A stretch of 64,000 nt of DNA, taken from positions 3,224,001 to 3,288,000 of the forward strand of contig NC_081332.1 in NCBI RefSeq assembly GCF_022539665.2, written 5' to 3'. Of the stretch, positions 15,718 to 39,610 are shown in pieces. Below the pieces are notes generated by a model. It saw nothing but the letters and a program-made list of their open reading frames with translations, was not told the DNA's origin and made no database searches. Each line of letters starts with the position of its first letter. Position 1 is the stretch's first letter. Source of the DNA: Daphnia carinata. Lineage: Eukaryota. Made by a program: the position numbers and the translations under genes.

Positions 15718-17042
15718 TGTCTCGTTTTTAACCCTAAATTATTTCTGGGATAATAACTTTACTATTAATACTATAAATTAGATGAATAACACTTGAACAG
15801 CTTTTCAGGTTCTAAGAAACAGTTAAGATAATCGTGTATTTTGTATACATTTCTTTATAGCCTATCACTAATGTAAATTCTGATGCTGTATATAAGGTCG
15901 TCCCGGGGTTGGTAATCATATTATGCAATATGTGATTTAATGTTTTAGTCCAAGCTTGACCGGAATCACTAACATATTGGATGAAAACTACCATATTAAA
16001 CAATTGGTAAGTGAAATAATAGTAATAAGAAATGTAAAGTACATTGCCAGTAACAAATGTTTTATCCCACTAAATGGATAATAATTGTACTAATATTTAT
16101 CCACCGTTTAGCTTTGTAACCCGTAGACTTTTTACTTTGCTGATGTTTTAGTGTTCAGGACAACTTGGTGTGTGACATAACATACAAAACAGTTGAAATA
16201 TAAAGTAGATCCAGATGTGCATCGAAAACTTTTCGGCAATGTTTTGCAGGTACAAGAACTACACTAACATATTTTTATGGTATTGATAAAGATTGTCAAT
16301 GCTTAATAAATTTACATTCAGGAGTAGGAGGTCAGTGTGAATTAACGTACATGATTACGTGATGAAAACCAGCAATAATGCAACCTAGCAGACACAGTGA
16401 ACATACACTATGGTACTATAATTTTTTTTAATAACTAGTGGTACTTAACAATTTTCAATTCCTCATTTGATGCAGGTTGAAAGACGGTCCGGGCAAACTC
16501 TTCAGCACCTACCCGCACACGGACTGGAAAATGGTCGTTCCTTAAAGAAATGGAATACTATCGGTAAGAGTTTGAATTGATTCAAAATTAGTTTGCTAAC
16601 ATAGATTTAGAGCTAATTTAATAGAAGTTAAGATATCTTCTTACTTTCTACAATTATAAGGACAATGAAGTACAATTATTATCCATGTAGTGGGATAAAA
16701 CATTTGTTACTGGCAATGTACTTTACATTTCTTATTACTATTATTTCACTTACCAATTGTTAAATATGGTAGTTTTCATCCAATATGTTAGTGATTCCGG
16801 TCAAGCTTGGACTAAAACATTAAATCACATACTGCATAATATGATTATCAACCCTGGGATGACCCTATATAAAGCATCAGAATTTACATTAGTGATAGGC
16901 TATAAAGAAATGTATACAAAATACACGATTATCATAACCGCTTGTTAGAACCTGAAAAGCTGTTCAACTGCTAGTCATCTAATTCATAGTGTTAGTAGTA
17001 AAGTTATTATCCCAGAAATAATTTAGGGATAAAAATGAGACA
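15718..17042. repeat. Internal ~370 bp inverted repeat (15718-16091 vs 16669-17042)
   Basis: Near-identical mirror ORFs 15812-16003(-) and 16757-16948(+). Confidence 0.92.
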
Positions 17043-17177
17043 AAAATCTTAATTTTAGTACAATCGATGAAACTCTGTGGCAGCATTTTGAGTCCGGTGG
17101 CCGAATTTTCTCCGCAACTGTGGCCCGAAAAAAGGATCCGAAAAACCCTGGTCAATATTTGTCTATGGGTTATGGAT
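17041..17177 (+). pseudogene. RBM19: Captured 137 bp RBM19 exon fragment (RRM)
   Basis: Encodes [45 protein letters not shown]. Colinear and ungapped with 52496-52632(-), 15 differences by manual count. Confidence 0.93.
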
Positions 17178-17884
17178 GTTTTATCCCACTTGTGTAGTTA
17201 TTAGCTCTGCTGTTGCCCAGTTTCGGAATTTTATTGCACATCGTTCCCTGTCGAAATTGTCTGCTTCGTGCTGAGAACCTGTATTTACGAAAAATACCTT
17301 GTCATCGTTGTTTTGTCGTAGGTAGTTGTGTGGAATGGGCATGTAGCTAACGAAATATTTTAGTAATAATATTGTTACCCGGATTCAAGTTGAATTATAT
17401 TCATCAAAATGATAAATTTTTTATTATGCTTGATACCAAATTAACATGATTTCCAAGAATAATTTGTATTTCCATGCAGGAGTACCAGAGTAATGTGACA
17501 AACATTCACAATGGTGATTACTCTTCACAGAGCTAACATTTAGTATGCTACTATTATATGTTTTATAAATTTAGTTATAATTTAATTCAGCTTTTTATTT
17601 AGTGGAATATAATTTATTTCAGTTTTTCTGATGCAGTTTGGAAGCCACTTGGAGTAAACTTTTCGTCAGGTACTCACAAAAAACAGATTGGCAAATCTAA
17701 CAAATGGTATGCAATGGGTAACAGTTTTATTACAGTTGGAAATAGTTTTTCCAAACATACATTCCGAACTCATTTTTAACACAGGTAACATATACTTGCA
17801 TCACATGTGGGTGGGTGAGATTTTGTTCCAGGAATTTCAGGCGTTGCGACTGAAAGATTGGCGAGCCAAAGGACGCCCTGCCCT

Positions 17885-17944
17885 GTTTACCACAGCGTTG
17901 AAGGATTGATGTATCCACTGCAAAATCGCCACAGCTGGAACGTT
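17885..17944 (-). pseudogene. Captured sideroflexin fragment
   Basis: Reads NVPAVAILQWIHQSFNAVVN; the copy at 32433-32492 reads NVPAVAIWHWIHQSFNAVVN. Matches the sideroflexin motif PAVLFWQWINQSFNAVVN. Confidence 0.7.
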
Positions 17945-20944
17945 TGTATCGGCGACAAGCACCCACCAGCAGCAGACGAAGTCCGAAGTGTGTGTACGTG
18001 CACGTGTGACTCGTTTGCCAACATCGTAATTCTCGAGCGAAAAGCGAGTATTTCGAGATTATTGTTGAAGTTGTGGGCAGTTCTTGGTCCATGTGTGATT
18101 CAACGTAAAGGTATGTGCAGCTTGCAATCGCCCAGTTTCTTGCTTTCCCATTTTTCCTTTAACAGTTTGACGCTTTCGACGTAAATACCCCGAGGAAAAG
18201 CGTCTTGCATTAAGTTGTTGAAAGTGTGGGTGAAGGACCGATTTTTGTAGCGTCATCCAAAGCTATTAGCAATGCTGTTGGATGTCAGTATCATTTACGT
18301 TATTGCCTAGACTTTCATTGCCTTCTAAAATCGTCTGCTCGACGAAACTCTATTTGCAAAAATGCTTAAGTATCTTTCAGTGTTACTCCTGTTGAAGCCG
18401 AGGTGAATAGCTGAAACGCAAGTATCATTTCATCTCTTTTTTGCCTCATCATTGTACGGAAACTATGTTGGTAACCCTTTGTTTTGCGTTTTTGTGTTTT
18501 GTTAAAACTTCCCATATCATTTTCAAGTGAAATTTTTATTTGTTTTTAGGTAGCTGTACGGATGTGTAAAGAATGGTGGTTGCAGGTCATGAGAGCCATT
18601 CCTTTATACAATACCTTTCCATTTTTATTGCTTTAATTTTTGTCATTTTAGCCGCTGAATGTAGCTGGAACAGAACACATTCGAATTTTAACGTCAAGAC
18701 ATCTGGCTGGTTGGACGATTAAACATCCCTCTGTGGGGACACAGACATTGCGTCTAGTTTTTATCTGTAGATTATTTCTGAGATAATAACTTTGTCACCA
18801 ACACCGTGACTTTGATAACCAGCAGTTGAACAGCCTTTCAATTCCAAACAAAAGGAGTCATGGTAATTGTATGTTTTGTATACATTTCTGTATAAACTAT
18901 CACTTATCTAGATTTACTCAATTGACATGACACTCTATATGGCTGGCATTGGAGTAGCTAATGCTGTTCATATGCAGAATATGTCACTGAGAAGGGGTTC
19001 TATTATGGTAGGAGTACCATGTTTTACTACAGGCTGACCAGAATCACAAACACATTGATTGAAAACTATCATCAGTTCCAACAATTGGTAAGTAAAATAA
19101 TAATAGTAAGAATACAAAATTGTAATAATATTCTAATGGTAAGAAAATACTTTGGAATTGTTGTTGGGAAAAAACGACAATTTATAATATAAATTGGAGT
19201 ACCAAACGTATTGTTTACTACCATATGGGTTACGTAATTATTAACATTAATATATAATTTTTCGTAGTTATTGTATTACAGAAGTATTGAAAATTTATTT
19301 TTTAACTTGTTTATGGTAAGGTACAATATATATCAACTTTGATTGTTTGTTATCCTACCAAATCGAAAATAATTGTACTTTTTACTTTGTTTAATTGTAC
19401 TTTGTAAATTATAGGTTTTTTTTGCTTTGCTTATTTGTTAGTGAACAGAACTATTTTTTGGCTTAGTGTAACATTAAATAATTTAACAGTTATTCAAAGT
19501 CGAACAGTTGAAATATCAAGTAGATTCACATATGCAGGTAATACGTTAAAATAGTGTTTTGCAGGTACAAGAATTACACATACATATTTAAACTTTATTG
19601 ATAAGATTTTCGATGTTTAATAATTTCTATTTACATTCAGAAGTAACCGGTTAGTAATGTGAATTAAAGGACATGACTATATGATGAATACCAGCAGTGA
19701 TGAAACCTAAGAGTAGCAACAAACATAAAAAGTATGGTACTATAAATTTTTTAAATAATTAGTGGTACTTAAGAAATTTCAATACCTCATTTGCTGCAGT
19801 TGAAAGGCAGCCAGAGTAAACACACCAGCATCTACTCATGGATTGAAAGGGTCGTTCCTAAAAGAAATGGAATGCTATTGGTAACAGTTTGATTTAATTA
19901 AGAATTAGTTTACTAACATAGATTTAGAACTAAGTTAATTGAAGTAGAGATATCCTCTAACTTTCTACAATTAAAGAAGACAATGAAGCTAGTTAGCATA
20001 AATTCAACTTACCTGATAAGCGAATCGATCGACGATGGTGATATAGTTGTGGTACATCTGTAGAGGCAAGACTCCGAACGAATGTTAATATCTATCATCT
20101 AGACGACGCCTTAAATACTCGCAGACACGTGTCACATTATTGCTTTCCAGGAAGTAGAGCGTAGGGTAGAGGGACCTAATTCTGAAGGTCGATAGGTTGA
20201 AGGACAAATTTTTATTTCCAGGTGAGCCCGAGGTATAGCCATTCCCCATCGATTGACCTTAGGTTACTTTGAATTTTTTTTTTTGATTTTTTTTGTTTGT
20301 TTCCAAGTGCCTAAAACAGACGAAGAACCTCGGGCATACACAAAAAGGAGAGGGAAGGGGGGAGGAAGAAAAAAAAAAGAAGCTAGAAGCTCAGTAGCTC
20401 TTTCACCTGCACGCGGTGCACTAGTGTAGATTTGTTGCTTGCAATCCACGTCTAATTATTCCTAGAACTTTCGCACGTGCTCTTAGCTTTCGCAAATTGT
20501 AGATTCATCAATAACGCACTGCATCAGCACCTGGGTTAGCCTCTGCACTGGCCTTGATTAGTTGGGTAGTATAAGTCTAGATGAAATAGATTAAGTTAAG
20601 GATAAGTAGGCCTAAAGTTAAGTTAAGAGTAAGGCGTAAGCGTAGTCCACCTCAATTCGTTACCTTTGCACAACACTATCTCAGCCATTTTCTTTCACTG
20701 TTTTATGCAATTATTAACCGTAGTGGTCGTTCGCAAACTATTTTTTTCCTTACAAACAATTGTACATTTCAACTTCTTAACACAATTTACACATGAACCG
20801 CCAATCCGGCCAATTTAAAAAAAAAAAAAAATTTTTCTCCATGTAACTGTAATTCGTGTACCTGATGTCTGTTAAAATTAAGATGAAATTTGTTGCTGTT
20901 CAAATGTTAAAACAAAATTTTTTTTTCTCGTTTCTGTACAATCA

Positions 20945-22700
20945 GCAGGGTAATCTCTGGGGCTGAAGGGCAACGAAGATCGCCGTCGCAGCCATTGGAA
21001 TACCGCCCAGGATTCTGAGGTATATATTTAAAAACTCGGTATCTCATCATGATTTTTTCTTTAAATTTTATGTGCCTAGGAAGGCCATAGCTCCACTGAA
21101 GAGGACCTTTGGACAACGAAGGTCATCACCAGGATTCTAGTCCAAAATTCCAAGGTATTCAAAAAATTGAAGTGCATTACTATTCTATGTAGTAATTTGT
21201 GTATAGGAGGTTTGGCAACGCTACCGATGAGGATTACTGGACGTCGGGGATCACCGCTGGAGCCGCCAAGGATTGCCAGGTATTACTTTCACAATTTAAA
21301 GTGTTTAATCGTGTTTCTTTATGTATTTAGGACGGTCCACATCATCTCCGAGGTGGGCCACTCGACAACGAGGTTCGCTTTCGAAGCCTCCTGGAATTAT
21401 CGCCCAAAATTGTGAAGTATTTAATTGAAAGTCTTAGGTTGTGATCTATGATTTTATTTTGTTTTTATGTATTTAGGAGGGCCTCACCATCATCGAAGAG
21501 GATGCTGGACATCGTGGATCGCCGCTGGAGTAACAAGATCGTCGCAATGGATATTTAAGGTATATGTTTTACACGTTTAAGTGTCTAAACATGTTTTTTA
21601 AATGTATTTAGGATGGCCCACATCATCACCGAAGAGGGTAACTGGACAACGAAGTACGCCATTGGAGCCACCAGGATCGTCGCTCAAAATTGTCACGTAT
21701 TTTATCGAAAATTTTTACTGTCAATTCATTAACCATTAATTTAATTTGTTTTTATGTATTTAGGAGGGCGCCATCATCGCCGAGGAGGACCATTGGACAA
21801 CGTGTTTCGCCGTCGGATTCACCAGGATGATCGCCCAAAATGGTCAAGTATTTAATTCAAAGTTATAAGTTTTACATTATGATCTCATTTTGTTTTTATG
21901 TATTTAGGTGGGCCGCACCATCATAAGAGAGGATGCTGGACATCGAGATTCGCCGCTGTAGCAACGACATTGTCGGCATGGGTATTGTGGGTTTTTTTAA
22001 AATTAACGCTAAGTGTTTAATCGTGCTTTTTGGGCTTCGAAGAGGGCTTCACCACCACCAAAAAGGACGCTGGAGCATCGATATCGTCGCCGTGGATGTT
22101 TCAGGTATATCACTTACTCGTATAATTGTGTATTCATGTTTTTGTTTTGTAATTAGGAGGGTTCCATCATCGCCGAAGAGGATTACTAGACTACGAGGTT
22201 CGTCGTCGGAGCTACCAGCATCGTCGCCCAACATTGTCAAGTATTTCATTGAAAGTCTTAAGTCTTACACCACTAATTTATTTTGTTTTTTATGTGTTTA
22301 CGAGGGCGGCATCATCGCCGAAGAGGATCACTGGCCAGCGTGGTTTGCCGTAGGAGGCACCAGTATCGTCACCCAAAATCGTCAAGTATTTCATTCAAAG
22401 TTATACGTTTTACACTATGATCTCATCTTGTTATGTATTTAGAAGGGCCATACCACCATCTGAGAGGATGCTGGACATCGAGAAGCGCCGCTGGAGCAAC
22501 GAGATTATCGCAATGGATGTTTCAGGTATATTTCTTTACATGTTTATTTGCCTAACCATGTTTTTTTATGTATTTAGGAGGGCTCCGTCGTTGTCGAATA
22601 GGACCACTGGACGTCGTAGGGTGTCGTTGGAGCAACGGAAATCGCTGCCCATCCCGTCGTACACGCCCATTAGGTCGATGGGGAAAAAATATGGTACGGT
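20945..22700 (+). repeat. Tandem micro-exon array: ~13 GC-rich ~70-85 nt exons separated by ~60 nt AT-rich GT-AG introns
   Basis: Period ~140-146 bp, consensus tttatgtatttAG|GAGGG..CATCATCGCCGAAGAGGAT..CTGGAC..|GTAT. Copies at ~35492-37250 (+) and 42303-43383 (-). Confidence 0.85.
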
Positions 22701-24726
22701 TGAGTATTGCCTAATTGGCATTTTTCTACTTTATTCCATGTTACTCGTGTGTTTTACAAATATGTTGCTCTTGTCCTATATTCCTTACCTTTATTTTTCC
22801 TTATGCATGACGGCTTAGTTTTAACTTTGACTGAGCACGCAAATTCACTACACCTGTACCCGACGGTTCACTCACGGTTTGTTTGCTTTTTTGCACCGGG
22901 TTGGGGTTAGCGTATCAGGTAATGTAGGCCTGCTCACATTGGTTTCAGGCCAAGGATTTAGTTGGTGCAGGTTTACTAACACTTACTACTTCTAAAATAA
23001 AAAGTAAAACAAAATAAATCTATTTTATGTCTGCATACTCTTCTTTTGAGTATGGTTTCTTGACTTGAGTAATATATAAATCGCGTGCGATCGGGTTGTA
23101 AACCCCGATTTGACAACCCGACAAAACGTGATGGGGCAGCAACCGTTCCGACCTGTCGCATAGGCAAGAATGAAAAACCCGCTGAACAAGAAATCGGTTC
23201 GAGCGATACGGGTTAGTGAGGTATAGTTCAGCATGCGACTATACAATACTAATATGTAAAGCCTTGACCACAGAAATCACCGGAGTCTTAGAAATCCTCC
23301 TTGATCGCGGAATTCAGACCAGAATCGTGAGTTGCATTTCATTTAATTCATTTCATTTCATTAAAAAAAAAAAAATAAGCTCAGTAGCTGGTTTACCTGC
23401 AAACGATATGCATTAATGTAGATCATCGCGGCAAAAGACGGTGTAGTGATTCAGAGAATTTTCATACGCCCATGTAGTTTTCGTCTACAAGCTGGATATG
23501 TTCTTTTTTTTTTGTGTACAAACTGGCTAGAATGACAAAGCTGTTAAATGAACTAGGAATTTGTATATTGGAAAGTGGGGCATACTATGCTGGATTTAAA
23601 ATTAATGCCCAACGAAGAAAGATATTAGGGAAAGATTATTAAGAAAGGAAATTATTCACAAAATATATCTTTCTGATTGGGTTTATTTAATACACCAGCC
23701 CAGGGGAAAGGAAATGATATTGCTAAAAATAATACAAATAATCGATGGAAAATATATAGCACTTCTAACGAGTGGGATGGGGGATATTGGTACTTCATTA
23801 ATTGTTGACTGTGAATCTTGATTAATGATAAGTATATAGTTACGTCATTTCGCTGTTTAATAGTTGAACCGTATAAATCGGTATTTTAAAAATTATAGGG
23901 GTTTAGCTTATTGAAAATGTATTACAAATTAAATATGACGAACGTTAATAGTAATGACGCTTAATATTATATTAATGTAATTTTATGAATACTAATCGCC
24001 TTCAAAAAAAATCATCGCTTGTGTTCGGGTTGCGTGTCCGATAAAAATGAACATGGAGTTAATAAAAAACAGCTTATTACTCGCTACACAAATTGTGATC
24101 CAACGGGCGGTTTTATTAAAGAAATTAGATGTTTTACAACGCTGTTAAACATGTTTCACATGAAGCTACTGAATCTTATCCGTGACATTGCAGAAAGTTG
24201 TTAAACTGTGGCAAAACTTGTACTTAGGTTTAACATTGCATAACTCTGTCAAAATGTAATGTTATAATATCAGTAAAAAAAATTTAACTTATCTTGCAAC
24301 AAATGAAACTATGTGACGTCAACAAATGTACACTGTCTTGTGCAAAGAAACTCTTCATAGAAAAACTGGGTGATAAAAACTTAAGTTCTTGTATGTAGTA
24401 CTTGTAAATTTTGTGGGGTTTGTCTCTCGTTGAATTTATTGTTTTTTTATTTTTTCTGCTGTCTGTATGTGTTGTGTTTTGATGTCTCCTTTGTCCTAGC
24501 GTTTGATTTGCGAAAGGTTAGTAAGTTTTAATGTAATGACGATTATATTGTGATTTAACCTCGTGTATATTAGAAGTACCGATTTAAGTTTTCGTTTATA
24601 GTCTGTATTTTTATCACCAGGGAAACATATACATATTCATTTTACACAATTTATTATAACTGAAACATTTACACAATTGACACTACATACAACAACTATA
24701 CACAATTTGACACCCATTGAATTTTC

Positions 24727-24797
24727 CGTAACTATAGGGTATTGAACCCTAATATTCGGCGTAGCTTGCCGATGCTCAACCATTGAGCTATAATCAC
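24727..24797 (-). tRNA. tRNA-like gene, full cloverleaf, anticodon position GCT, non-canonical anticodon loop and short variable arm
   Basis: GTGATTA TA GCTC AATGGTT GAGC A TCGGC AAGCTAC GCCGA ATAT TAGGG TTCAATA CCCTA TAGTTAC G: all four stems pair, and A and B boxes are present. Confidence 0.65.
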
Positions 24798-24864
24798 TTT
24801 CCATTTCAATGTTTTATACCTTGAGTCAACACACGAAAATATTGTATAGTTAATGTTTTAATCT

Positions 24865-25323
24865 TGCTATACTATTTGTCAGTCTGACCAGTAAGTGTAT
24901 GTGTATCATGGCGTATATGTAGAGGTTCCATTTACGGTGTCAGAAGTTTGAGGTTCAAATCCAGTAAGGTATAGAAATAACAAAAAGCATTAATTAAACG
25001 TAACAAATTTTTACTATTACTTATATTTTAACATTGCTATAGTATTTGGCAGTCTGACCAATTAATGTAAATATATCATGGTATGTCTGTAGAGGGTCCG
25101 GCTACGATGTCAGAAGACAAAGGTTCAAATCCATTAAGAGGTAAAAAACGAAAATTTAACAAACTGTCTTATATTTTAACTGTCACTCAAATATTTGAAA
25201 ATGTGCAAAAGATGACGCTTCGCTATATCATTGGTTAGTCTGACCATACATTTCAAAAATGTTATAGCGTATGTGTAGAGAATTCGGCTACGGTATGAGA
25301 AGACTAGGTTTCAAATCGTAGGC
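24865..25323 (+). repeat. Three tandem ~170-185 bp units, each with a leader plus a degenerate tRNA-derived body
   Basis: Each unit has GCTATA..AGTCTGACCA, an A-box-like TRGYRT..TGTAGAG and a B-box GGTT(T)CAAATC. Confidence 0.65.
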
Positions 25324-25442
25324 ATTGCTAAAGTTATCGGAAAACACGCATTAAATACTTTTATGTTTATTATGTAATATTTGTTGAATATGTGTAATAG
25401 GTTGTCTAAAGATGACTTGCAAAAATGGTTATCAGCAGAATG

Positions 25443-25514
25443 TGACTCATGGCTCAATGGTAGAGCATTGGCTTCGTAAGTCGAATGATTTGGGATCGAT
25501 CCCCAAAAGAGTTC
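25443..25514 (+). tRNA. tRNA-like pseudogene, anticodon CGT (Thr-like), imperfect acceptor stem
   Basis: D-stem GCTC/GAGC, anticodon arm TTGGC TTCGTAA GTCGA, T-arm TTGGG ATCGATC CCCAA. Copies at 39522-39593 (+) and 40481-40552 (-). Confidence 0.6.
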
Positions 25515-25699
25515 AATCATATAATAATTCATATGAACGATGTATCAAATTCTATACATTGCATAAGGTTTGTAAAACTGCAACTGCTATGCAACAATTG
25601 CAAATGTAGAAACCATCATGATATTTAGAATTCTATCAAATGATTCAAATGTTGCAATATATATGCAGCAATGCAAATACTGTTATTAAATTTTCCTCC

Positions 25700-25862
25700 T
25701 TTACCACCAGATGCCGTTATCACGAAATCATCTAAAGTTTGTGACCTTCATTTTGACGACGACGCCATTGTTAGAAGTCGTCTGTCGATTGTGGACGGGA
25801 AACCAACATCAGTCGTCGTTCGTCCCGTTCTAAAACCTGGAGCTGTTCCCACAAAGTTTCAG
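25700..25862 (+). pseudogene. THAP zinc-finger C-terminal half (transposase- or THAP-protein-derived fragment)
   Basis: ITKSSKVCDLHFDDDAI...RPVLKPGAVPTKF carries the C-x2-H-F and LKxxAVPTxF THAP signatures. The N-terminal half is missing. Confidence 0.8.
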
Positions 25863-26487
25863 AGCATTGTTTATTTGTGAGTTTAAAATCTCGTTCGGAT
25901 GTTCCCTGAAAATCATTAGCAGTTTATGGTAAACGTATTGTTTCTTTCCGCCATGACATCGAAGTTTTTTCTCTTTCTGTTTTCTGACGCATTCGTGCAC
26001 GGTCATGTTGCATGTGCTGTCCGCAGGTAGCGTTCATACTGAACGAGTACTGAATAACCTCGTTAGCCTTGTCTTTAGCCAAGACAATACATCCTTGTAA
26101 CCAAGTTTCCGATATTGTAACTTGTTAACTGTTAGTCGTGAATGCCTTGCAGGAATCTAGTACGAAACTTTTACTCAATACACCCAAGAAAAGCGGATGT
26201 AGCAGATATTACAGTATATCTTGACATTTCTTTGTTGTGTTAAAAAATAGCAGACAGCCTGCTATTGCTTTTGATTAGCAATTACCAGTGGATTAATAAT
26301 CGGTACTTTGTTGCACCAGATGTTTAGACCTGCAGGTTGCCAAACGATAGTTAATGTTAACATAATAAAGGTAAACACAAAAAGCATTTAATTAACTGTA
26401 GTTTTTATTAATCGAAAGCGTTATCTTGCATACGGCATTACAAATCATTCTTTAATTTTCATCATCGATTAACGAAGACGTGGCACA

Positions 26488-29339
26488 TCACTTTTCGGGA
26501 ATGCCAGACGAACAGGCAAACGTCAGACGAGGATTTGAGTCTGCTGGGAAACCGAACCCCATCTCAGTAAGTTCGTTCTTATGGTAAATCTGCCAACATG
26601 CACGTCCATTTGCCTCAAACTTTTTTCCTGTATAGTCTTTAACAATGTACAACATTGATTGGCCTTGGCTACAATCTCGGCAGTCTGGTTGGCAACGCAA
26701 AAATTACTGTATTCTGTCTTAACGTTCTTGTCTAGCCATTGCCAGTGATCACCCGTCGTTAGGTCGAAGAAACCTCCTGTCCAAAGCAGCCTACGTTCTT
26801 GATCCGTTTTTTGGAATGGTGTACTCTTATTGTTCCGTACAGCATTATCGACGAAAATGTCTTCACATCTCGACCCGATCGTGAGCCAACTTGCATCGTT
26901 TTGGCAAACCTCCTGCATTGTCGAATACGGTACGCGACCAGAATACAAACTTAAGTTGCCATTTAACGTCGTGCTAACGTGACTCGTTTTACTGTAGGCA
27001 ACTTTTGGCACGAAGGTGAATCTTATTGTCGTTACGACAATCAGAGCCACGATCAGTGGCACAAGAAAAGTAAAGCAAATGGCTGTGATTGAGGTAATTG
27101 ATCTACTTTTGTTTTTGGTGTCCTGTTTCTGGAGTTTAGTTTGTTTTCTGTTTTTTTTTATAGGTACGTGAATCTGTTCGCCTGTGTGAGACCTGAGTGG
27201 TGGTGGAACGTAACTTTGTGCTTCATCGTCTAGGGCAATGATTTCATCACGTGGTGTTCGGGAATATAAGAGAAATTGGGCCACGATGGAAACGACACAG
27301 AAGAAAGAGTGCAAACCAACGAGGAGAGTTATGACAGCCGAATCTCCGACTAGTACTAGTTCGTTTTCAACCATCAGGACGTTTTTGTAAAACAAAAGGA
27401 CGCTCTGGATAACTAGCATGAGCAAAACGAATAGGATTGCACAGCGATGGACATTGGCACCGGAGTAAGTTGGCTGATATGTTTGAACCATTGTATAGCG
27501 ATCAATGATATATCCAATTGCCAGACACAGGACGCTTATAGCTATGATGGGGGGAAACGTGAAATATCCCACGCACGTTATGACAAACTGCGCCACCAGT
27601 TGGGAATAGCGTTCTCCGATGTTGAACCTGTCACGCAGAAATGGACTGTCTGCCTTGGGAGATTTGGTTAAACGCAGCCACAGTCTGTTTACCCATTGCG
27701 TTACTCGAGGTAAAACGAAAAAACTGTGAGATAAATTCCATTCAATGACGGAGATTGCCATTTCAGAGCCCAAGTCTGGCCGGAAAACGCACTGCAGCCG
27801 AATCCAGTGATTCAAAACGTTTGGATCTGTTTGAGTCCAGATGATGGAATTCCAGATGTCCTTGAAGTTGAGCATGGGTAACACGATTTCAGACACCACG
27901 ATAATGATGAATGAAGAGAAAAAGAGTCCTAAGTGAGCACTGGATTTTCTCATGTGATCCACTTGGAAGGCTGGACAGAGGCGAACAATTACCAAGAAAA
28001 CTATTGTCAAAATCGATTTCGAGTAACGTAGAACAGCGTAGAAGATGTTTTGTTTGTCGACTAGGAGTTTCAGCGATTCGACGAATATCGTGGATCCTGC
28101 TAGGGGTAAGAGAATGCTGAAAAAGTATTGGATAATCATTTTTAATAGACAGATGTGGCTGCCCTTTTGATGCAGATTGGACCATACGATATCACGAGAT
28201 GGTGGAGCCCATTCAACTCGCCAACCTCTTAGTGTCCGGTGATTGATTAAGTATTTGCTTGCTTTCACTGCATGCTCTCGTGTTCTGAATGTGACGAAAG
28301 CTGCAGTGGCTGGATGGCTTGTTGATGGCTTCTCCATTAGCTTGTGGATAATACTTATTCCAGTCACAATATCAGCATTGTTGTCTCGGAAGTATGACCT
28401 CAAATATTCCTCGGTGCATTTTTCGTAATTGATCCGTGAGATGAGCAGTGTCCGTATTGTTTCACCGTTGCCCATAATGGTTTGGTTTCGGTACAGATGA
28501 TAGGAAAAGGTAACGACGCTATGCTGAAAAACCACCCACAAGCATAAAGCTGTTCTTATTACATTCCAGGTTGAAAATATTCGCATTAGTAAAACCGTGA
28601 TTACCATTAAGAAAGATGGTATCAAAATGGCTATCAAGCAGAGTTGAAAACTGAGTAAAGCCAGTCCGTCTGTTCCTTGCTGTTCCGTCAAATGTCTAGC
28701 GATGTCACCCCAGATTCTACGGGCCGTACTTCTCATCGAGGCCAGTGTTCCTTCTCCTACGTGCTCCATTTCGTCGTCTTCTTGGCTATGGGCGGATTCA
28801 GTGTCATTGTGACAGTAGGAAAGCGGATTATCGTAGGTTCGAAATAAAAATTCTCCCACTCCAGAGATTCCTAGGACGATTAACAGTGTTAATATATAAA
28901 ACAAGATTGTCTTATTCAATAAAAACACTGTGATGTTGTTGAAAACTCCCTGATCTGATGGGCAGTTTCGTGTTAGCATTAACTCGTTTGACGGGTCATA
29001 TGCCTCAGTTTCAAGGAGTTCCAGAATAACCTCCATGATCCCATCAATACTCACTCTTGGATTCATTTCGTGAATTTTTCGCACATCGCTACAAGTGAAA
29101 TGCGTTCCATCACGTGTTGACAAATAGATAATGTCAAGTAATTGTCTTCTATCTAGCGACGGGAGAATTCCATTCGATGGTGATGATGGTGTATATAGTG
29201 GATTTGAGATGTCTGGGTTTAGTGTGGAAAATTCGGCTACCCCTCGAAACCCAAAAACGGCTGCGACCACTAGGTATCCAAAGAATACTACTAAGGCCAA
29301 AATTGCAAGAATAGTCTTGCATTGTTCTTTCCTATTCAT
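26488..29339 (-). CDS. Intronless OSCA/TMEM63 (CSC1-like) channel fused to a C-terminal TM plus C-type lectin-like domain, with probable 1-nt frameshift near 26700
   Basis: 962-codon ORF 26523-29411, first ATG at 29339. TMEM63 motifs: GTDGLALLSFQ, RTLLISRI, AFVTF, WRVEWAPPSRDIVWSNL, LQCVFRPDLG, FNIGERYS, IDRY, YVPPPL. Then a TM and a lectin-like part (EVCQ..LTIGS, LWTGG, WQWLD, YSNF). The adjacent frame (26488-26700) supplies QPD...ACW...LTFAC. Confidence 0.85.
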
Positions 29340-29609
29340 GTTCAGAGGTTGAAAGTATGCCGCGTATATGCTGGAGGGATATCGATCTAGGGATCCTAAG
29401 AAAGTATCCACTCAGTGTATGTCTTACGTGATAAAAATGTGCGGGTGGCAACTGCTAAATAACTCATGGCAACGAAGTAGTTAAATGACAATTCGATAAC
29501 AGATTTAGTTTTCTTGTACATCAATAAATGTTGCATCATTTCGCACATAGCTCATTAATTGGTATTTATTTTGGCATGGAATTCATGGTTTTTGTGTAAA
29601 TTTTACGCA

Positions 29610-29810
29610 CGACAAAATAAGCACGACTTTTAGTTTTTTACGGTTAATTAAAAATCGATAAGCCAATATGAAAATACACCCGATTTTCGTGATCAGCGAT
29701 CAATTTTGAATCAAAATAATGTATTTTTAACCAAATCTAGAATTTGACGAAAATTGAAAAAGTGAGAAAGCCTTCTTGCTTTTTCATTTTTTTGGCCAAA
29801 TTTCAAATTT
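29610..29810 (-). repeat. Inverted copy of the 8660-8795 MITE-like sequence
   Basis: Shares TTTTAGTTTTTTACGGTTAATT and CCCGATTTTCGTGATCAGCGATCAATTT with the reverse complement of 8660-8795. Confidence 0.75.
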
Positions 29811-31744: not shown

Positions 31745-34700
31745 TAGTTATTAACTCTGCTGGTGCCCAGTTTCGGAATTTTATTGCACATCGTTCCCTG
31801 TCGAAATTGTCTGCTTCGTGCTGAGAACCTGTATTCGCAAAAAATACCTTGTCATCGTTGTTTTGTCATAGGTAGTTGTGTGGAATGGGCATGTAGGTAA
31901 CCAAATATTTTAGTAATAATATTATTACCCGGATACAAGTTAAATTATATTCATCAATTTGATAAATTTTGATTATGCTTGATACCAAATTAACATGATT
32001 TCCAAGAATAATTTGTGTTTCCATGCAGAAGTACCAGAGTAATGTGACAAACATTCACAACAGTGATTACCCTTCACAAAGCTAACATTTAGTATGCTAC
32101 TATTATTTGTTTTATAAATTTAGTTATAATTTAATTCAGCTTTTTATTTAGTGGAATATAATTTATTTCAGTTTTTCTGATGCAGTTTGGAAGCCACTTG
32201 GTGTAAACTTTTCGTCAGGTACTCACAAAAAACAGATTGGCAAATCTAACAAATGGTATGCAATGGGTAACAGTTTTATTACAGTTGGAAGTAGTTTTTC
32301 CAAACATACATTCCGAACTCATTTTTAACACACTAACATATAGTTGCATCACATGTGGGTGGGTGAGATTTTGTTCCAGGAATTTCAGGCGTTGCGACTG
32401 AAAGATTGGCGAGCCAAAGGACGCCCTGCCCTGTTTACCACAGCGTTGAAGGATTGATGTATCCAGTGCCAAATCGCCACAGCTGGAACGTTTGTATCGG
32501 CGACAAGCACCCACCAGCAGCAGACGAAATCCGAAGTGTGTGTACGTGCGCGTGTGATACGTTTGACAACATCGTAACTCGAGCGAAAAGCGAGTATTTC
32601 GAGATTATTGTTGAAGTTGTGGGCAGTTCTTGGTCCATGTGTGATTCAACGTAAAGGTATGTGCAGCTTGCAATCGCCCAGTTTCTTGCTTTCCCATTTT
32701 TCCTTTAACAGTTTGACACTTTCGACGTAAATACCCCGAGGAAAAGGCGTCTTGCATGAAGTTGTTGAAAGTGTGGGTGAAGGACTGATTTTTGTAGCGT
32801 CATCCAAAGCTATTAGCAATGCTGTTGGATGTCAGAATCATTTACGTTATTGCCCAGACTTTCATTGCCTTCCAAAAAATCGTCTGCTCGACGAAACTCT
32901 GTTCGCGAAAATGCTTAAGCATCTTTCAGTGTTACTCCTGTTGAAGCCGAGGCGAATAGCTGAAACACACGTATCATTTCATCTCTTTTTTGCCTCATCA
33001 TTGTACGGAAACTATGTTAGTAACCTTTTGTTTTGCGTTTTTGTTTTTGTTAAAACTTCCCATATCATTTTCAAGTGCAATTTTTATTTTTTTTTAGGTA
33101 GCTGTATGGATGTGTAAAGAATGGTGGTTGCAGGTCATGAGAGCCATTCCTTTATACAATACCTTTCCATTTTTATTGCTTTAAGTTTTGTCATTTTAGC
33201 CGCTGAATGTAGCTGGAACAGAACACATTGGAATTTTAACGTCAAGACATCTGGCAGGTTGGACGATTAAACATCCCTCTGTGGGGACACAGATATTGCG
33301 TCTAGTTTTTATCTGTAGATTATTTCTGAGATAATAACTTTGTCACCAACACCGTGACTTTGATAACCAGCAGTTGAACAGCCTTTCAATTCCAAACAAA
33401 AGGAGTCATGGTAATTGTATGTTTTGTATACATTTCTGTATAAACTATCACTTATCTAGATTTACTCAATTGACATGACACTCTATATGGCTGGCATTGG
33501 AGTAGCTAATGCTGTTCATATGCAGAATATGTCACTGAGAAGGGGTTCTATTATGGTAGGAGTACCATGTTTTACTACAGGCTGACCAGAATCACAAACA
33601 CATTGATTGAAAACTATCATCAGTTTCAACAATTGATACGTAAAATAATAGTAATATTACAAAATTGTAATAATATTCAAATGGTAAGTAAATACTTTGG
33701 AATTGTTGTTGCGAAAAAACGACAATTTATAATATAAATTGTAGTACCAAACGTATTGTATACTACCATATGGTTTAAGTAATTATTAACATTAATATAT
33801 AATTTTTCGTAGTTATTGTATTATAGAAGTATTGAAAATTTATTTTTTAATTTGTTTATGGTAAGGTACATTATATATCAATTATGATTGTTTGTTATCC
33901 TACCAAATTTAAAATAATTGTACTTTTTACTTTGTTTAATTGTACTTTGTAAATTATAGGGTTTTTTTTTGCTTTGCTTATTTGTTAGTAAACAGAACTA
34001 TTTTTTGGCTTAGTGTAACATTAAATAATTTAACAGTTATTCAAATTCGAACAGTTGAAATATCAAGTAGATTCACATATGCAGGTAATACGTTAAAATA
34101 GTGTTTTGCAGGTACAAGAATTACACATACATATTTAAACTTTATTAATAAGATTTTCAATGTTTAATTATTTCTATTTACATTCAGAAGTAACCGGTTA
34201 GTAATGTGAATTAAAGGACATGACTATATGATGAATACCAGCAGTGATGAAGCCTAAGAGTAGCAACGAACATAAAAAGTATGGTACTATAAATTTTTTA
34301 AATAATTAGTGGTACTTAACAAATTTCAATACCTCATTTGATGCAGTTGAAAGGCAGCCAGAGTAAACACGCCAGCATCTACTCATGGATTGAAAGGGTC
34401 GTTCCTAAAAGAAATGGAATGCTATTGGTAACAGTTTGATTTAATTAAGAATTAGTTTACTAACATAGATTTAGAACTAATTTAATTGAAGTAGAGATAT
34501 CCTCTAACTTTCTACAATTAAAGAAGACAATGAAGCTACTTAGTATAAATTCAACCTACCTGATAAGCGAATCGATCGTCGATGGTGATATAGTTGTGGT
34601 ACATCTGTAGAGGCAAGACTCCGAACGAATGTTAACATCTATCGTCTAGACGACGCCTTAAATACTCGCAGACACGTGTCACATTATTGCTTTCCCGGAA

Positions 34701-37700
34701 GTAGAGCGTAGGGTAGAGGGACCTAATTCTGAAGGTCGATAGGTTGAAGGACAAATTTTTATTTCCAGGTGAGCCCGAGGTTATAGCCATTCCCCATCGA
34801 TTGACCTTAGGTTACTTTGAATTTTTTTTTTTTGGTTTTTTTTGTTTGTTTCCAAGTGCCTAAAACAGACGAAGAACCTCGGGCATACACAAAAAGGAGA
34901 GGGAAGGGGGGAGGAAGGAAAAAAAAAGAAGCTAGAAGCTCAGTAGCTCTTTCACCTGCACGCTGTGCACTAGTGTAGATTTGTTGCTTGCAATCCACGT
35001 CTAAATATTCTTAGAACTTTCGCACGTGCTCTTAGCTTTCGCAAATTGTAGATTCATCAATAACGCACTGCATCAGCACCTGGGTTAGCCTCTGCACTGG
35101 CCTTGATTAGTTGGGTAGTATAAGTCTAGATGAAATAGATTAAGTTAAGGATAAGTAGGCCTAAAGTTAAGTTAAGAGTAAGGCGTAAGCGTAGTCCACC
35201 TCAATTCGTTACCTTTGCACAACACTATCTCAGCCATTTTCTTTCACTGTTTTATGCAATTATTAACCGTAGTGGTCGTTCGCTAACCATTTTTTTTCTT
35301 ACAAACAATTGTACATTTCAACTTCTTAACACAATTTACACATGAACCGCCAATCCGGCCAATTTTTTTAAAAAAAATTTTTCTCCATGTAACTGTAATT
35401 CGTGTACCTGATGTCTGTTAAAATTAAGATGAAATTTGTTGCTGTTCAAATGTAAAAAAAAATTTTTTTTTTTCTCGTTTCTGTACAATCAGCAGGGTAA
35501 TCTCTGGGGCTGAAGGGCAACGAAGATCGCCGTCGCAGCCATTGGAATACCGCCCAGGATTCTGAGGTATATATTTAAAAACTCGGTATCTCATCATGAT
35601 TTTTTCTTTAAATTTTATGTGCCTAGGAAGGCCATAGCTCCACTGAAGAGGACCTTTGGACAACGAAGGTCATCACCAGGATTCTAGTCCAAAATTACAA
35701 GGTATTCAAAAAATTGAAGTGCATTACTATTCTATGTAGTAATTTGTGTATAAGAGGGTTGGCAACGCTACCGATGAGGATTACTGGACGTCGGGGATAA
35801 CCACTGGAGCTGCCAAGGATTGCCAGGTATTACTTTCACAATTTAAAGTGTTTAATCGTGTTTCTTTATGTATTTCGGACGGTCCACATCATCTCCGAGG
35901 TGGGCCACTCGACAACGAGGTTCGCTTTCGAAGCCTCCTGGAATTATCGCCCAAAATTGTGAAGTATTTAATTGAAAGTCTTAGGTTGTGATCTATGATT
36001 TATTTTGTTTTTATGTATTTAGGAGGGCCTCACCATCATCGAAGAGGATGCTGGACATCGTGGATCGCCGCTGGAGTAACAAGATCGTCGCAATGGATAT
36101 TTAAGGTATATGTTTTACACGTTTAAGTGTCTAAACATGTTTTTTAAATGTATTTAGGATGGCCCACATCATCACCGAAGAGGGTAACTGGACAACGAAG
36201 TACGCCGTTGGAGCCACCAGGATCGTCGCTCAAAATTGCCACGTATTTTATCGAAAATTTTTACTGTCAATTCATTAACCATTAATTTATTTTGTTTTTA
36301 TGTATTTAGGAGGGCGCCATCATCGCCGAGGAGGACCATTGGACAACGTGTTTCGCCGTCGGGTTCACCAGGATAATCGCCCAAAATGGTCAAGTATTTA
36401 ATTCAAAGTTATAAGTTTTACATTATGATCTCATTTTGTTTTTATGTATTTAGGAGGGCCGCACCATCATAAGAGACGATGCTGGACATCGAGATTCGAC
36501 GCTGTAGCAACGACATTGTCGGCATGGGTATTGTGGGTTTTTAAAAAATTAACGCTAAGTGTTTAATCGTGTTTTTTGGGCTTCGAAGAGGGCTTCACCA
36601 CCACCAAAAAGGACGCTGGAGCATCGATATCGTCGCCGTGGATGTTTCAGGTATATCATTTACTCGTATAATTGTGTATTCATGTTTTTGTTTTGTAATT
36701 AGGAGGGTTCCATCATCGCCGAAGAGGATTACTAGACTACGAGGTTCGCCGTCGGAGCTACCAGGATCGTCGCCCAACATTGTCAAGTATTTCATTGAAA
36801 TTCTTAAGTCTTACACCACTCATTTATTTTGTTTTTTATGTGTTTACGAGGGCGGCATCATCGCCGAAGAGGATCACTGGCCAGCATGGTTTGCCGTAGG
36901 AGGCACCAGTATCGTCACCCAAAATCGTCAAGTATTTCATTCAAAGTTATACGTTTTACACTATGATCTCATCTTGTTATGTATTTAGGAGGGCCTTACC
37001 ACCATCTGAGAGGATGCTGGATATCGAGGATCGCCGCTGGAGCAACGAGGTTATCGCAATGGATGTTTCAGGTATATTTCTTTACATGTTTATTTGCCTA
37101 ATCATGTTTTTTTTTTAATGTATTTAGGAGGGCTCCGTCGTTGTCGAATAGGATCACTGGACGTCGTAGGGTGTCGTTGGAGCAACGGAAATCGCTGCCC
37201 ATCCCGTCGTACACGCCCATTAGGTCGATGGGGAAAAAAGATGGTACGGTTGAGTATTGCCTAATTGGCATTTTTCTACTTTATTCCATGTTACTCGTGT
37301 GTTTTACAAGTATGTTGCTCTTGTCCTATATTCCTTACCTTTGTTTTTCCTTATGCATGACGGCTTAGTTTTAACTTTGACTGAGCACGCAAATTCACTA
37401 CACCTGTACCCCACGGTTCACTCACGGTTTGTTTGCTTTTTTGCACCGGGTTGGGGTTAGCGTATCAGGTAATGTAGGCCTGCTCACATTGGTTTCAGGC
37501 CAAGGATTTAGTTGGTGCAGGTTTACTAACACTTGCTACTTCTAAAATAAAAAGTAAAACAAAATAAATCTATTTTATGTCAGCATACTCTTTTGAGTAT
37601 GGTTTCTTGACTTGAGTAATATATAAATCGCGTGCGATCGGGTTGTAAACCCCGATTTGACAACCCGACAAAACGTGATGGGGCAGCAACCGTTCCGACC

Positions 37701-39610
37701 TGTCGCATAGGCAAGAATGAAAAACCCGCTGAACAAGAAATCGGTTCGAGCGATACGGGTTTGTGGGGCTGATTGGTCTCACAGTTTTCCTCAACGGATG
37801 TGTTGCAACGCTGTCTCACAAACGTCTGCACACGAGTTCTCACCTCAGTTTTTTTAGTGCAGTGAAGAAAGTTATGCAAACCAAGGATATCGGTACATAT
37901 TTGACAATTTCATGTTAACGATTATTTATTTAGATGTTGTTATTTAGATGTTTAGCTTATTGAAAATGGATTACAAATTAAATATATGCCGAACGTTAAT
38001 AGTAATGACGCTTAATACTATATTGATGTAATTGTATGAATACTAATCGCCTTCAAAACAAATCATCGCTTGTGTTCGGGTTTCGTGTCCGATAAAAATG
38101 AACATGGAGTTAATAAAAAACAGCTCATTACTCGCTACACAAATTGTGATCCAAGCCGGGCGGTTTTACTAAAGAAATTAGATGTTTTACAACGCTGTTA
38201 AACATGTTTCACATGAAGCTGCTAAATCTTATCCGTGACATTGCAGAAAGTTGTTAAACTGTGGCAAACCTTGTACTAAGGTTTAACATTGCATAACTCT
38301 GTCAAAATGTAATGTTGTAATATCAGTAAAAAAATTAAACTTATCTTGCAACAAATGAAACTGTGTGACGTTAACAAATGTACACTGTCTTGTGCAAAAG
38401 AAACTCTTCATAGAAAAACTGGGTGATAAAAGCTTAAGTTCTTATATATGGTACTTGTAAATTTTGTGGGGTTTTTCCCTCGTTGAATTTATTGTTTTTT
38501 TATTTTTTCTGCTGTCTGTAATGTTGTATGTGTTGTGTTTTGTTGTCTCCTTTTTCCTAGCGTTTGATTAGCGAAAGGTTAGTAAGTTTTAATGTAATGA
38601 CGATTATATTGTGATTTAACCTCGTGTATATTAGAAGTACCGATTTAAGTTTTCGTTTATAGTCTGTATTTTTATCACCAGGGAAACATATACATATTCA
38701 TTTTACACAATTTATTATAACTGAAACATTTACACAATTGACACTACATACAACAACTATACACAATTTGACAACCATTGAATTTTCCGTAACTCTGTGG
38801 TATTGAACCCTAATATTCGGCGTAGCTTGCCGATGCTCAACCATTGAGCTATAGTCACTTACAATTTCAAGGTTTTATACCTTGAGTCAACGCACGAAAA
38901 TATTGTATAGTTAATGTTTTAATCTTGCTATACTATTTGTCAGTCTGACCAGTGAGTGTATGTGTAGCATGGCGTATGTGTAGAGGCTCCAATTACGGTG
39001 TGAGAACTTTGAGGTTCAAATCCAGTAAGGTATAGAAATAACAAAAAAGCATTAATTAAACGTAACAAATTTTTACTGTTACTTATATTTAACCTTGCTA
39101 TAGCATTTACACTTTGCTATACTATTTGGCAGTCTGACCAATTAATGTATATGTTTCATGGCATGTCTGTAGAGGGTCCGGCTACCATGTCAGAAGACAA
39201 AGGTTCAACTCCATTAAGGGGTTAAAATGAAAATTGAATAAAATATATTATATTTTAACTGTCACTCAAATTTTTGAAAATGTGTAAAAGATGACGCTTC
39301 GCTATACCATTGGTTAGTCTGACCATACATTTCAAAAATGTTATAGCTTATGTGTAGAGAATCCGGCTACGGTATGAAAAGACTAGGTTTCAAATCGTAG
39401 GCATTGCTAAAGTTATGGGAATACATGCATTAAATACTTTTATGTTTATTATATTATATTTATTGAATATGTGTAATAGGTTGTCTAAAGATGACTTGCA
39501 AAAATGGTTGTCAGCAGAATGTGACTCATGGCTCAATGGTAGAGCATTGGCTTCGTAAGTCGAATGATTTGGGATCGATCCCCAGAAGAGTTCAATCCTA
39601 AAATAAATGA
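31745..39610 (+). repeat. Second, direct copy of the unit (31745-37761 matches 17195-23214; 37949-39610 matches ~23901-25530)
   Basis: Colinear with scattered substitutions. Duplicated ORFs include 20907/35424 and 22417/37141. Confidence 0.95.
38788..38858 (-). tRNA. tRNA-like (GCT) copy 2, weakened T-stem
   Basis: Paralog of 24727-24797. Its mirror copy is at 41216-41286 (+). Confidence 0.5.

What the first reader, a model, noticed from the sequence alone, without database searches (positions are those of the whole stretch)
26488..29339. Intronless OSCA/TMEM63 channel fused to a C-type lectin-like ectodomain: candidate glycan-tethered or ligand-gated channel
Seen: a long ORF with ordered TMEM63 motifs. 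After the usual end (YVPPPL) come a basic linker, one more TM (ITAICFTFLVPLIVALIVV) and a lectin-like fold (helix-1 Cys, LWTGG, WQWLD, YSNF). It has no intron in 2.8 kb, whereas the RBM19 and SLC4A11-like genes here have introns every 100-400 bp. It stays open amid decayed cargo. Known: OSCA/TMEM63 proteins are mechano/osmosensitive cation channels, and I know of none with a CTL domain. Inference: a retro- or virus-derived chimeric receptor-channel that may couple extracellular ligand or matrix binding to gating.
Basis: partly seen in the sequence, partly recalled or inferred. Interest (0 to 1): 0.88.

Follow-up and report, generated by a model that had tools for sequence, protein, structure and literature searches.

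The report
Lectin-capped TMEM63 channel in water fleas
Water fleas carry a conserved gene that joins a distant relative of the stretch-activated TMEM63 ion channels to an extra membrane helix and a domain predicted to have the C-type lectin fold, which would sit outside the cell and likely lets an outside binding partner control the channel, although the copy in this window is broken by a frameshift inside that domain.

Summary
The fusion is real and old, but this copy is broken. The 938-codon ORF (29339-26523, minus strand) encodes a divergent animal-type TMEM63, an extra TM helix and a C-terminal domain. The same architecture is in Daphnia magna and D. pulex (86% and 58% identity) and in four unnamed full-length proteins 30-36% identical to D. 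magna; channel and tail each form one clade. An alignment-based model of the intact D. magna tail is a C-type lectin-like domain (CTLD; Z 13.0), without the Ca2+/sugar motifs. Codons are under purifying selection (dN/dS about 0.2). No support for viral origin; expression and gating untested. My searches found no paper describing it. Best reading: a tethered, protein-ligand-coupled TMEM63, analogous to polycystin-1.

The parts
26523..29339 (-). Long ORF, 938 aa (P0001): TMEM63-TM-CTLD fusion gene, in the ancestral frame to about aa 893, out of frame after
29250..29339 (-). N-terminal hydrophobic segment (aa 10-28), likely a signal peptide (inferred; a similar segment starts P0008, P0021, P0005, P0075, P0077, P0078)
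28962..29156 (-). Fusion-specific N-terminal ectodomain (aa 62-126) with C83 (fused members only) and C126 (family-wide)
   Evidence: an HMM of this segment hit only fused-family proteins among 220; C83 in 10 of 10 fused members that cover it
27270..28928 (-). Divergent TMEM63 core, TM0-TM10 (aa 138-690); short TM1-TM2 loop; cytosolic beam helices deleted; TM6 Glu replaced by Val
28176..28322 (-). Pfam PHM7_cyt match (aa 340-388)
   Evidence: E 2.4e-9, 38.1 bits, cut-off 27
27090..27269 (-). Cytosolic linker (aa 691-750), YxPP motif then basic stretch; least constrained part
   Evidence: 25% identity to L001, dN/dS about 0.6
27033..27089 (-). Extra TM helix (TM11, aa 751-769) that would carry the tail back outside
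   Evidence: hydropathy; present in all fused members
26659..27014 (-). CTLD, part before the break (aa 776-893): C812, C825 (fused members only), WTGG, C881
26658..26659 (-). Frame break: 13 nt fewer than in L001 (position uncertain by a few bases)
26488..26658 (-). CTLD, part after the break (56 codons and stop, in another frame): YIVKD strand, CW, FxC
   Evidence: 84% identity to D. magna 897-954
26404..26409 (-). AATAAA 79 nt after the ancestral stop, possible polyadenylation signal (weak: 1.2 per kb in this window)

Best explanation
This is a conserved, intron-free Daphnia gene that joins a divergent TMEM63 channel to an extra membrane helix and a domain predicted to have the C-type lectin fold, which would face outward and likely acts as a protein-binding tether that couples an outside ligand or matrix to opening of the ion/lipid groove; the copy in this window carries a frameshift that would leave that domain unable to fold. 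Steps. Shown: architecture, conservation, single origin, purifying selection, the break. Predicted: CTLD fold; topology (signal peptide, N-ectodomain out, TM0-TM10, cytosolic linker, TM11, CTLD out). Inferred: the fusion arose by appending a whole type II TM+CTLD gene to the cytosolic TMEM63 C-terminus, the one place where its N-in/C-out topology fits; the CTLD binds protein rather than Ca2+/sugar; the two cysteines found only in fused members (C83, C825) form a disulfide that latches the CTLD onto the N-ectodomain ahead of TM0, so that binding or pull on the cap is passed to the channel; in Daphnia this would replace the lost beam helices as the input. The pore is remodelled rather than dead: the acidic residue has moved from TM6 to TM7 or to an earlier turn of TM6.
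For: Architecture in 5 of the 150 listed 50%-identity representatives (P0002, P0075-P0078) and in named D. magna and D. pulex proteins; a sixth lineage by overlap of P0068 with P0048. Fused channels one clade 100/99; fused CTLDs one clade SH-aLRT 99, with two fragments inside. Tail model pLDDT 74, pTM 0.75; best Z 13.0, rmsd 2.8 over 138 residues to the thrombomodulin CTLD, CD93 12.6, ties within 1; all 47 listed Foldseek rows are CTLD proteins. Stand-alone relatives of the tail are single-TM proteins with the TM before the CTLD and several reach Pfam Lectin_C near its cut-off. dN/dS window vs L001: 0.29/1.47 overall, 0.23/1.83 in the CTLD, 0.19/1.57 in TM3-TM10. C825 in 12 of 12 fused tails, 0 of 40 stand-alone domains with a residue there; C83 in 10 of 10. 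Beam span 18-19 aa in 6 Daphnia-type rows against 75-78 in P0075-78 and 76-91 in 4 of 5 unfused rows. hTMEM63A W613 column is E or Q in 12 of 12 fused, Y559 column small in 11 of 12. Precedent for CTLD-dependent activation in another channel family: PMC7728438, section 8 read.
Against: No expression, localisation, ligand or current was observed; read searches gave nothing. The TM6 Glu that sets OSCA1.2 conductance (PMC6235563 passages) is absent in 12 of 12 fused proteins against 56 of 71 ordinary ones, so the protein may not conduct ions. The same pore changes occur in 12 unfused divergent relatives, so they predate the CTLD and are not evidence of coupling to it. P0075-78 keep the beam, so CTLD gain did not require beam loss. 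Beam swaps in OSCA1.2 had only small effects (PMC11003742 passages). The C83/C825 pattern comes from one origin, so the rows are not independent; either Cys could instead pair between subunits. No Foldseek row reached E 0.001. dS is near saturation and rests on one pair of sequences.
Confidence: 0.5

Rival explanations
1. A non-conducting receptor or a lipid scramblase: the TMEM63 body has given up cation conduction, and CTLD binding triggers lipid scrambling or signalling through the cytosolic domain.
For: TM6 Glu lost in 12 of 12, Y559 lipid-gate column small in 11 of 12; TMEM63A/B scramble lipids and W473/Y559 gate them (PMC13013810 passages); long branch from ordinary TMEM63.
Against: An acidic or polar residue sits at the W613 ion bottleneck in 12 of 12, TM6 Arg kept in 12 of 12, TM7 Tyr in 12 of 12; E531A lowers but does not abolish OSCA1.2 current.
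Confidence: 0.22
2. An ordinary tension-gated channel whose CTLD only anchors or sorts it (adhesion, targeting to a sensory or epithelial site) without acting on the gate.
For: The CTLD hangs on a poorly conserved 60-aa linker and its own TM helix; P0075-78 keep the beam helices.
Against: Two cysteines and an N-ectodomain appear only with the fusion and are invariant over 30% identity; Daphnia forms lack the beam.
Confidence: 0.22
3. On origin: the fusion arose in, or came from, a large DNA virus of arthropods, where intron-free TMEM63-like and type II CTLD genes lie side by side, and was domesticated in Daphnia.
For: Intron-free in the window and in L001; long branches; most relatives are unnamed metagenome-type records; other agents' notes report OSCA genes in giant viruses (untested, algal type).
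Against: 0 confirmed relatives in 6 of 6 viral-contig scans (exact-pattern searches of limited reach); viral CTLD models match the tail no better than cellular ones (E 4e-3 or worse, 8-13% identity); L001 flanks hold no other long ORF; the channel is nearer animal TMEM63 than plant OSCA.
Confidence: 0.12
4. On the break: the 13-nt deficit is an assembly or consensus error (or one haplotype) and the animal has an intact gene.
For: The copy shows little decay: 41 changes unique to it against 31 unique to D. magna (p 0.24; 1 of 5 outgroups gave p 0.02); the piece after the break is still constrained (dN/dS 0.26/1.62); the region has a 100-N gap next to a 99.9% 9-kb inverted duplicate.
Against: A clean 13-nt loss outside a homopolymer is not a typical sequencing error (own knowledge); no GT-AG pair longer than 33 nt lies between the invariant FC and YIVKD motifs, so splicing is unlikely to bridge it; the gene sits in repeat-rich DNA where duplicates decay.
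Confidence: 0.3

Closest known systems
Animal TMEM63A/B/C (CSC1-like; PDB 8k0b, 8ehw, 8ehx) of the OSCA/TMEM63 family
   Same: Homologous TM3-TM10 and cytosolic RRM-like domain (profile E 3.9e-16 to 8k0b); IRLxCxFxPD motif, TM6 Arg, TM7 Tyr; hydropathy fits TM0-TM10.
   Different: Signal-peptide-like start, new N-ectodomain, a twelfth TM and an outer CTLD; short TM1-TM2 loop; TM6 Glu, Y559 and W613 replaced; beam helices deleted in Daphnia forms; no introns.
Polycystin-1 / polycystin-2 complex (PMC7728438, abstract and section 8 read)
   Same: Works-like analogy: a CTLD in the same polypeptide as a channel subunit, needed for activation.
   Different: No homology of the channel (TRP-type fold, recalled); PC-1's CTLD is in a long cleaved N-terminus, here it is C-terminal behind its own TM helix.
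Thrombomodulin / CD93 CTLDs, struthiocalcin, RegIII (top structural matches)
   Same: CTLD fold with four core cysteines; Z 12.5-13.0, tied.
   Different: 10-16% identity; extra helix after the third Cys; WT(G), YIVKD and CWQ motifs; type II orientation. That these bind protein or mineral without the classic Ca2+ site is recalled, not tested.
Unnamed type II TM + stalk + CTLD family (P0044, P0046-P0054, P0088, P0095, P0107, P0132 and others)
   Same: Same divergent CTLD subfamily by sequence; TM precedes the domain.
   Different: No channel; lack C825; often a Thr/Pro-rich stalk or a second CTLD; source organisms not named.

Membership tests
OSCA/TMEM63 | Sequence homology over the TM3-TM10 pore domain | tested here: met
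   PDB sequence search E 2.4e-13 (single) and 3.9e-16 (profile) to 8k0b
OSCA/TMEM63 | Cytosolic RRM-like domain (Pfam PHM7_cyt) | tested here: met
   10 of 10 members of A2; window E 2.4e-9
OSCA/TMEM63 | Pfam RSN1_7TM and RSN1_TM above cut-off | tested here: not met
   No hit for the window protein or A2; P0076 only 16.3 bits against 28.7. Read as divergence, since homology is shown otherwise
OSCA/TMEM63 | Eleven TM helices TM0-TM10, C-terminus cytosolic | tested here: inconclusive
   Hydropathy and alignment fit TM0-TM10 plus one more; TM6/TM7 are weakly hydrophobic; no full-length model
OSCA/TMEM63 | Pore-facing TM6 acidic residue (OSCA1.2 E531, hTMEM63A E571) | tested here: not met
   0 of 12 fused, 56 of 71 ordinary rows; role from PMC6235563 and PMC10319725 passages
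OSCA/TMEM63 | Beam-like domain (two membrane-parallel cytosolic helices) | tested here: not met
   18-19 aa span in the window protein and 5 Daphnia-type relatives; 75-78 aa, so kept, in P0075-78
OSCA/TMEM63 | Mechanically or osmotically activated cation current / lipid scrambling | not testable with these tools
   needs patch clamp and scrambling assays
C-type lectin-like domain (fold) | CTLD fold | tested here: met
   For the intact D. magna tail: Z 13.0, rmsd 2.8, 138 aligned; Foldseek probability 0.93-1.00, best E 5e-3
C-type lectin-like domain (fold) | Four core cysteines | tested here: met
   12 of 12 intact fused tails. The window copy keeps only the first two in frame
C-type lectin-like domain (fold) | Complete domain in the window's own reading frame | tested here: not met
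   Break at about model residue 119; strands E126-132, E146-150, E169-175 lie in another frame
Ca2+-dependent C-type lectin (carbohydrate recognition domain) | EPN/QPD and WND motifs (recalled definition) | tested here: not met
   CW is followed by Q in 12 of 12 fused tails, no WND; an xPN after FC varies (EPN 1, QPN 2, SPN 2, none in 7 of 12)
Ca2+-dependent C-type lectin (carbohydrate recognition domain) | Pfam Lectin_C above cut-off | tested here: inconclusive
   No hit in fused tails; stand-alone relatives reach 17-22.6 bits against 22.6; language-model look-alikes are Lectin_C clusters, 0.94 and 0.92
Virus-derived (endogenous viral) gene | Closest relatives in viral genomes, viral neighbours | tested here: inconclusive
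   6 of 6 viral scans empty but short-reach; no long ORFs beside the gene in the window or L001; context of P0075-78 not available
Retrocopy | Intron loss against an intron-bearing parent, poly(A) tail, target-site duplication | tested here: inconclusive
   Intron-free in window and L001; no parent DNA or genome held; no poly(A) run seen after the stop; age would have erased such marks

The most novel reading that the evidence does not exclude
A first ligand- or tether-gated branch of the OSCA/TMEM63/TMEM16 superfamily: a 12-TM receptor-channel whose disulfide-latched CTLD cap has replaced the cytosolic beam as the gating input, so that a bilayer-tension sensor has been rebuilt into a receptor (for cuticle, matrix, microbes or a partner cell) in Daphnia and related unnamed lineages.
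Probability: 0.3. Interest if true: 0.9.

Novelty: new variant of a known kind. Interest (0 to 1): 0.7.

Why it matters
OSCA/TMEM63 channels are described as opening through membrane tension and lack structured ectodomains (PMC6235563 passages). A natural, long-conserved member with a built-in ectodomain, and a sub-branch that has deleted the beam-like domain whose role is still unsettled (PMC11003742 passages), gives ready-made constructs to ask whether this fold can be gated by a tether or ligand and whether the beam is needed at all. The intact D. magna protein is in public databases as 'uncharacterized' or 'RRM domain-containing', so the architecture has been invisible to Pfam-based annotation. 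The broken copy here may be a natural loss-of-function allele.

Tried and rejected
Single-sequence AlphaFold2 of the window's own tail gave pLDDT 29.5: uninformative, not used. Pfam and PDB sequence searches of the tail gave no significant CTL hit (best echicetin E 0.5). Complex prediction of N-ectodomain (58-137) with CTLD (776-950): no verdict, score 0.00, alignment not used by the tool. Six viral-contig scans and one genome-contig scan confirmed no relative; PHROGs gave one weak low-complexity hit in 10 proteins. The metagenome scan confirmed 1 locus of 591 pattern matches. No genome is held, so copy number and synteny are open; L001 flanks show no real similarity to the window flanks. Read-based checks of expression and of the break could not be made. 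A second protein-atlas look-up for taxa did not complete. Rejected: chance ORF; splice rescue of the break; long-dead pseudogene; classical Ca2+/sugar lectin; window-specific chimera. Earlier-findings look-ups by sequence, place and words found no note on this fusion.
Full report
Observation. The minus strand holds one ATG-to-stop ORF of 938 codons at 29339-26523, far beyond chance (longest 193 codons in 200 shuffles). It matches Pfam PHM7_cyt (E 2.4e-9) and, by sequence, solved TMEM63 structures better than plant OSCAs (8k0b E 2.4e-13; OSCA E 2e-6). Hydropathy shows an N-terminal hydrophobic segment, the channel helices and one more helix at aa 751-769. The neighbouring RRM and bicarbonate-transporter genes are in short pieces, but teneurin in the same window has ORFs of 801 and 935 codons, so long exons alone are not exceptional.

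The copy here is broken. The first homologue search returned 5 proteins among 7995 scored candidates, and their clusters contain D. magna XP_032794754.2 (P0008) and D. pulex EFX68006.1 (P0021); the window is therefore a Daphnia close to D. magna (86% identity; inference). All five relatives continue past EIVAKA with a conserved tail that the window protein lacks. That tail is in the window in another frame, ending at the stop at 26488-26490, and the DNA is 13 nt shorter than in L001 at 26659/26658. In the model of the intact domain the break falls before three strands and two of four core cysteines. No GT-AG pair longer than 33 nt lies between the invariant FC and YIVKD motifs. The break is recent or an artefact: changes unique to the window against D. 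magna are 41:31 (p 0.24; one of five outgroups p 0.02), and the out-of-frame piece is still 84% identical to D. magna. The gene lies in a 3.9-kb single-copy island in a region that is 81% within-window repeat, next to a THAP remnant (21.8 bits, under the cut-off), with an N gap beside a 99.9% inverted 9-kb duplicate. Reads could not be obtained and no genome is held.

The fusion is old and selected. A profile search of 1.84 billion representatives gave 229 hits at E 0.001 or better, of which 150 were listed. Of these 150, 5 carry both channel and tail (P0002 and four new full-length proteins, P0075-P0078, 30-36% identical to P0008), 102 channel only, 42 tail only, 1 neither; 79 hits were not seen. 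A further lineage is inferred from P0068 (TM3-TM10, 30% identity), which overlaps P0048 (TM and tail) in the same cluster. In an IQ-TREE tree of 46 channel domains (12 fused, 12 divergent unfused, 22 picked from the other 71 that cover at least 240 of 325 columns; 19 of 102 short rows dropped) the fused rows are one clade, 100/99, beside divergent unfused TMEM63s (92/94; long branches, so this placement is unsure). In a tree of 56 tail domains (16 partial or weak ones left out) the fused tails are one clade, SH-aLRT 99, with two fragments inside. Seven of the 12 fused rows are Daphnia-type near kin, and the aligning HMM was built from these groups. Codon comparison of the window with L001, the only other DNA held and also intron-free, gives dN/dS 0.29/1.47 overall, 0.23/1.83 for the tail before the break, 0.26/1.62 after it, 0.19/1.57 for TM3-TM10 and 0.78/1.31 for the linker (near saturation, one pair). 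The organisms behind P0075-78 are not known.

The tail has the C-type lectin fold but not the sugar site. Pfam and PDB sequence searches do not recognise it. AlphaFold2 on the intact D. magna tail with a 24-row alignment gave pLDDT 74 and pTM 0.75. All 47 listed Foldseek PDB rows are CTLD proteins (by title; CD93, proMBP and DEC-205 by recall), probability 0.93-1.00, none at E 0.001. The exhaustive aligner gave Z 13.0, rmsd 2.8 over 138 residues to thrombomodulin's CTLD, with struthiocalcin, CD93 and RegIII tied within 1; 54 of 48,161 chains reached Z 8. The language-model atlas returned Lectin_C clusters at 0.94 and 0.92, and several stand-alone relatives reach Pfam Lectin_C near its cut-off. 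The WND position is WQ in 12 of 12 fused tails and the EPN-like position varies, so Ca2+-dependent sugar binding is unlikely (motif definitions recalled). Stand-alone relatives have one TM before the CTLD: a type II gene appended to the cytosolic C-terminus of TMEM63 yields exactly this topology, which is my inferred route of fusion.

Fused members share a signal-peptide-like start and an N-terminal ectodomain; an HMM of it hit only fused-family proteins among the 220 held. C126 and C517 are family-wide; C83 (10 of 10 fused rows covering it) and C825 (12 of 12 fused, 0 of 40 stand-alone domains) are not. After the expected pairs, these two are left over on the same side of the membrane, which suggests a disulfide latch between the two ectodomains; this is an inference from one evolutionary origin. 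The span that holds the beam helices is 18-19 aa in the Daphnia-type rows, 75-78 in P0075-78. In the pore, the column of hTMEM63A E571 is hydrophobic in 12 of 12 fused rows against acidic in 56 of 71 ordinary rows; the Y559 column is small in 11 of 12; the W613 column is E or Q in 12 of 12. E531A lowers OSCA1.2 conductance 1.6-fold (PMC6235563, passages); E571 and W613 hold a lipid plug (PMC10319725, passages); W473/Y559 gate lipids and W613 ions (PMC13013810, passages). The 12 unfused divergent relatives share these pore changes, so they predate the CTLD.

Mechanism. Most likely (0.5) the intact protein is a surface TMEM63 whose CTLD cap binds a protein or matrix partner and passes binding or pull to the groove, much as the CTLD of polycystin-1 is needed to activate the polycystin channel (PMC7728438, abstract and section 8); that is an analogy, not kinship. 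Rivals are a non-conducting receptor or scramblase (0.22) and a tension-gated channel that the CTLD merely anchors (0.22). On origin, retroposition and read-through fusion in an animal genome is favoured over a virus (0.12): six viral scans were empty and viral CTLD models match no better than cellular ones, though these tests have short reach. Other agents' notes of giant-virus OSCA genes, one lacking the beam, are untested leads about algal-type channels.

Novelty. Searches of the held library found no description: accessions, 0 papers; TMEM63 with Daphnia, 2 papers, one checked by passage and about trout tmem63b, the other seen only in the listing; TMEM63, paralogs, arthropod and C-type lectin together, 0; Lectin_C with PHM7_cyt, 0; broader searches showed nothing relevant among the 20 of 216, 20 of 41 and 15 of 1,143 papers listed. 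The superfamily survey PMC5868767 has no 'Daphnia' or 'lectin' in its main text (passages; supplements not looked at). The D. pulex immune survey PMC2685406 mentions C-type lectins once, for scavenger receptors (passage). Subscription papers, InterPro and TCDB were not searchable. The proteins are in databases as uncharacterized. Verdict: a real, undescribed domain architecture of a known channel family; function untested; the window's copy frameshifted. Interest 0.7.

Noticed in passing
window 13070-22025 and 42303-51255: An 8957-nt inverted duplicate at 99.9% identity that ends at the 100-N gap (42203-42302); a recent duplication or a scaffolding artefact.
   Followed up: partly
window 17195-25619 and 31745-39690: Direct repeats (6 kb at 97%, 1.7 kb at 92%) on either side of the TMEM63-CTLD gene, which is present once between them.
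   Followed up: partly
window 25644-25880 (+), with related copies near 23900-25700, 37900-39700 and 40300-42100: Remnant of a THAP domain (Pfam E 3.3e-4, under the cut-off), suggesting a decayed P-element-like transposon; whether the repeat copies include the THAP piece was not checked.
   Followed up: partly
window 21300-22800 and copies at 35850-37200, 42340-43100: Tandem units of about 550 nt, 67-79% alike; one ORF has a weak 7tm_6 (odorant/gustatory receptor) hit, E 0.0035.
   Followed up: no
window 11250-12160 (+): Bicarbonate-transporter (HCO3_cotransp) fragments in overlapping frames 11715-12119 and 11815-12156, which look frameshifted.
   Followed up: partly
window 56461-63200 (-): Teneurin gene with very long exons and the usual C-terminal Tox-GHH domain.
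   Followed up: no
proteins P0082, P0085, P0087, P0093, P0101, P0103, P0122, P0163 and P0115, P0125, P0151, P0185: Unnamed, highly divergent unfused TMEM63 groups that lack the TM6 Glu and mostly carry an acidic residue at the W613 position (11 of 12); an undescribed-looking branch in its own right.
   Followed up: partly
proteins P0044, P0046-P0054, P0088-P0219 (CTL-only rows): A large unnamed family of type II membrane proteins with Thr/Pro stalks or acidic N-termini and one or two divergent CTLDs; several share near-identical N-termini with diverged CTLDs, as in a diversifying receptor family.
   Followed up: partly
window 8673-8799 and 29604-29729: A 127-nt element at 90% identity in inverted orientation, one copy 265 nt upstream of the gene's ATG.
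   Followed up: no
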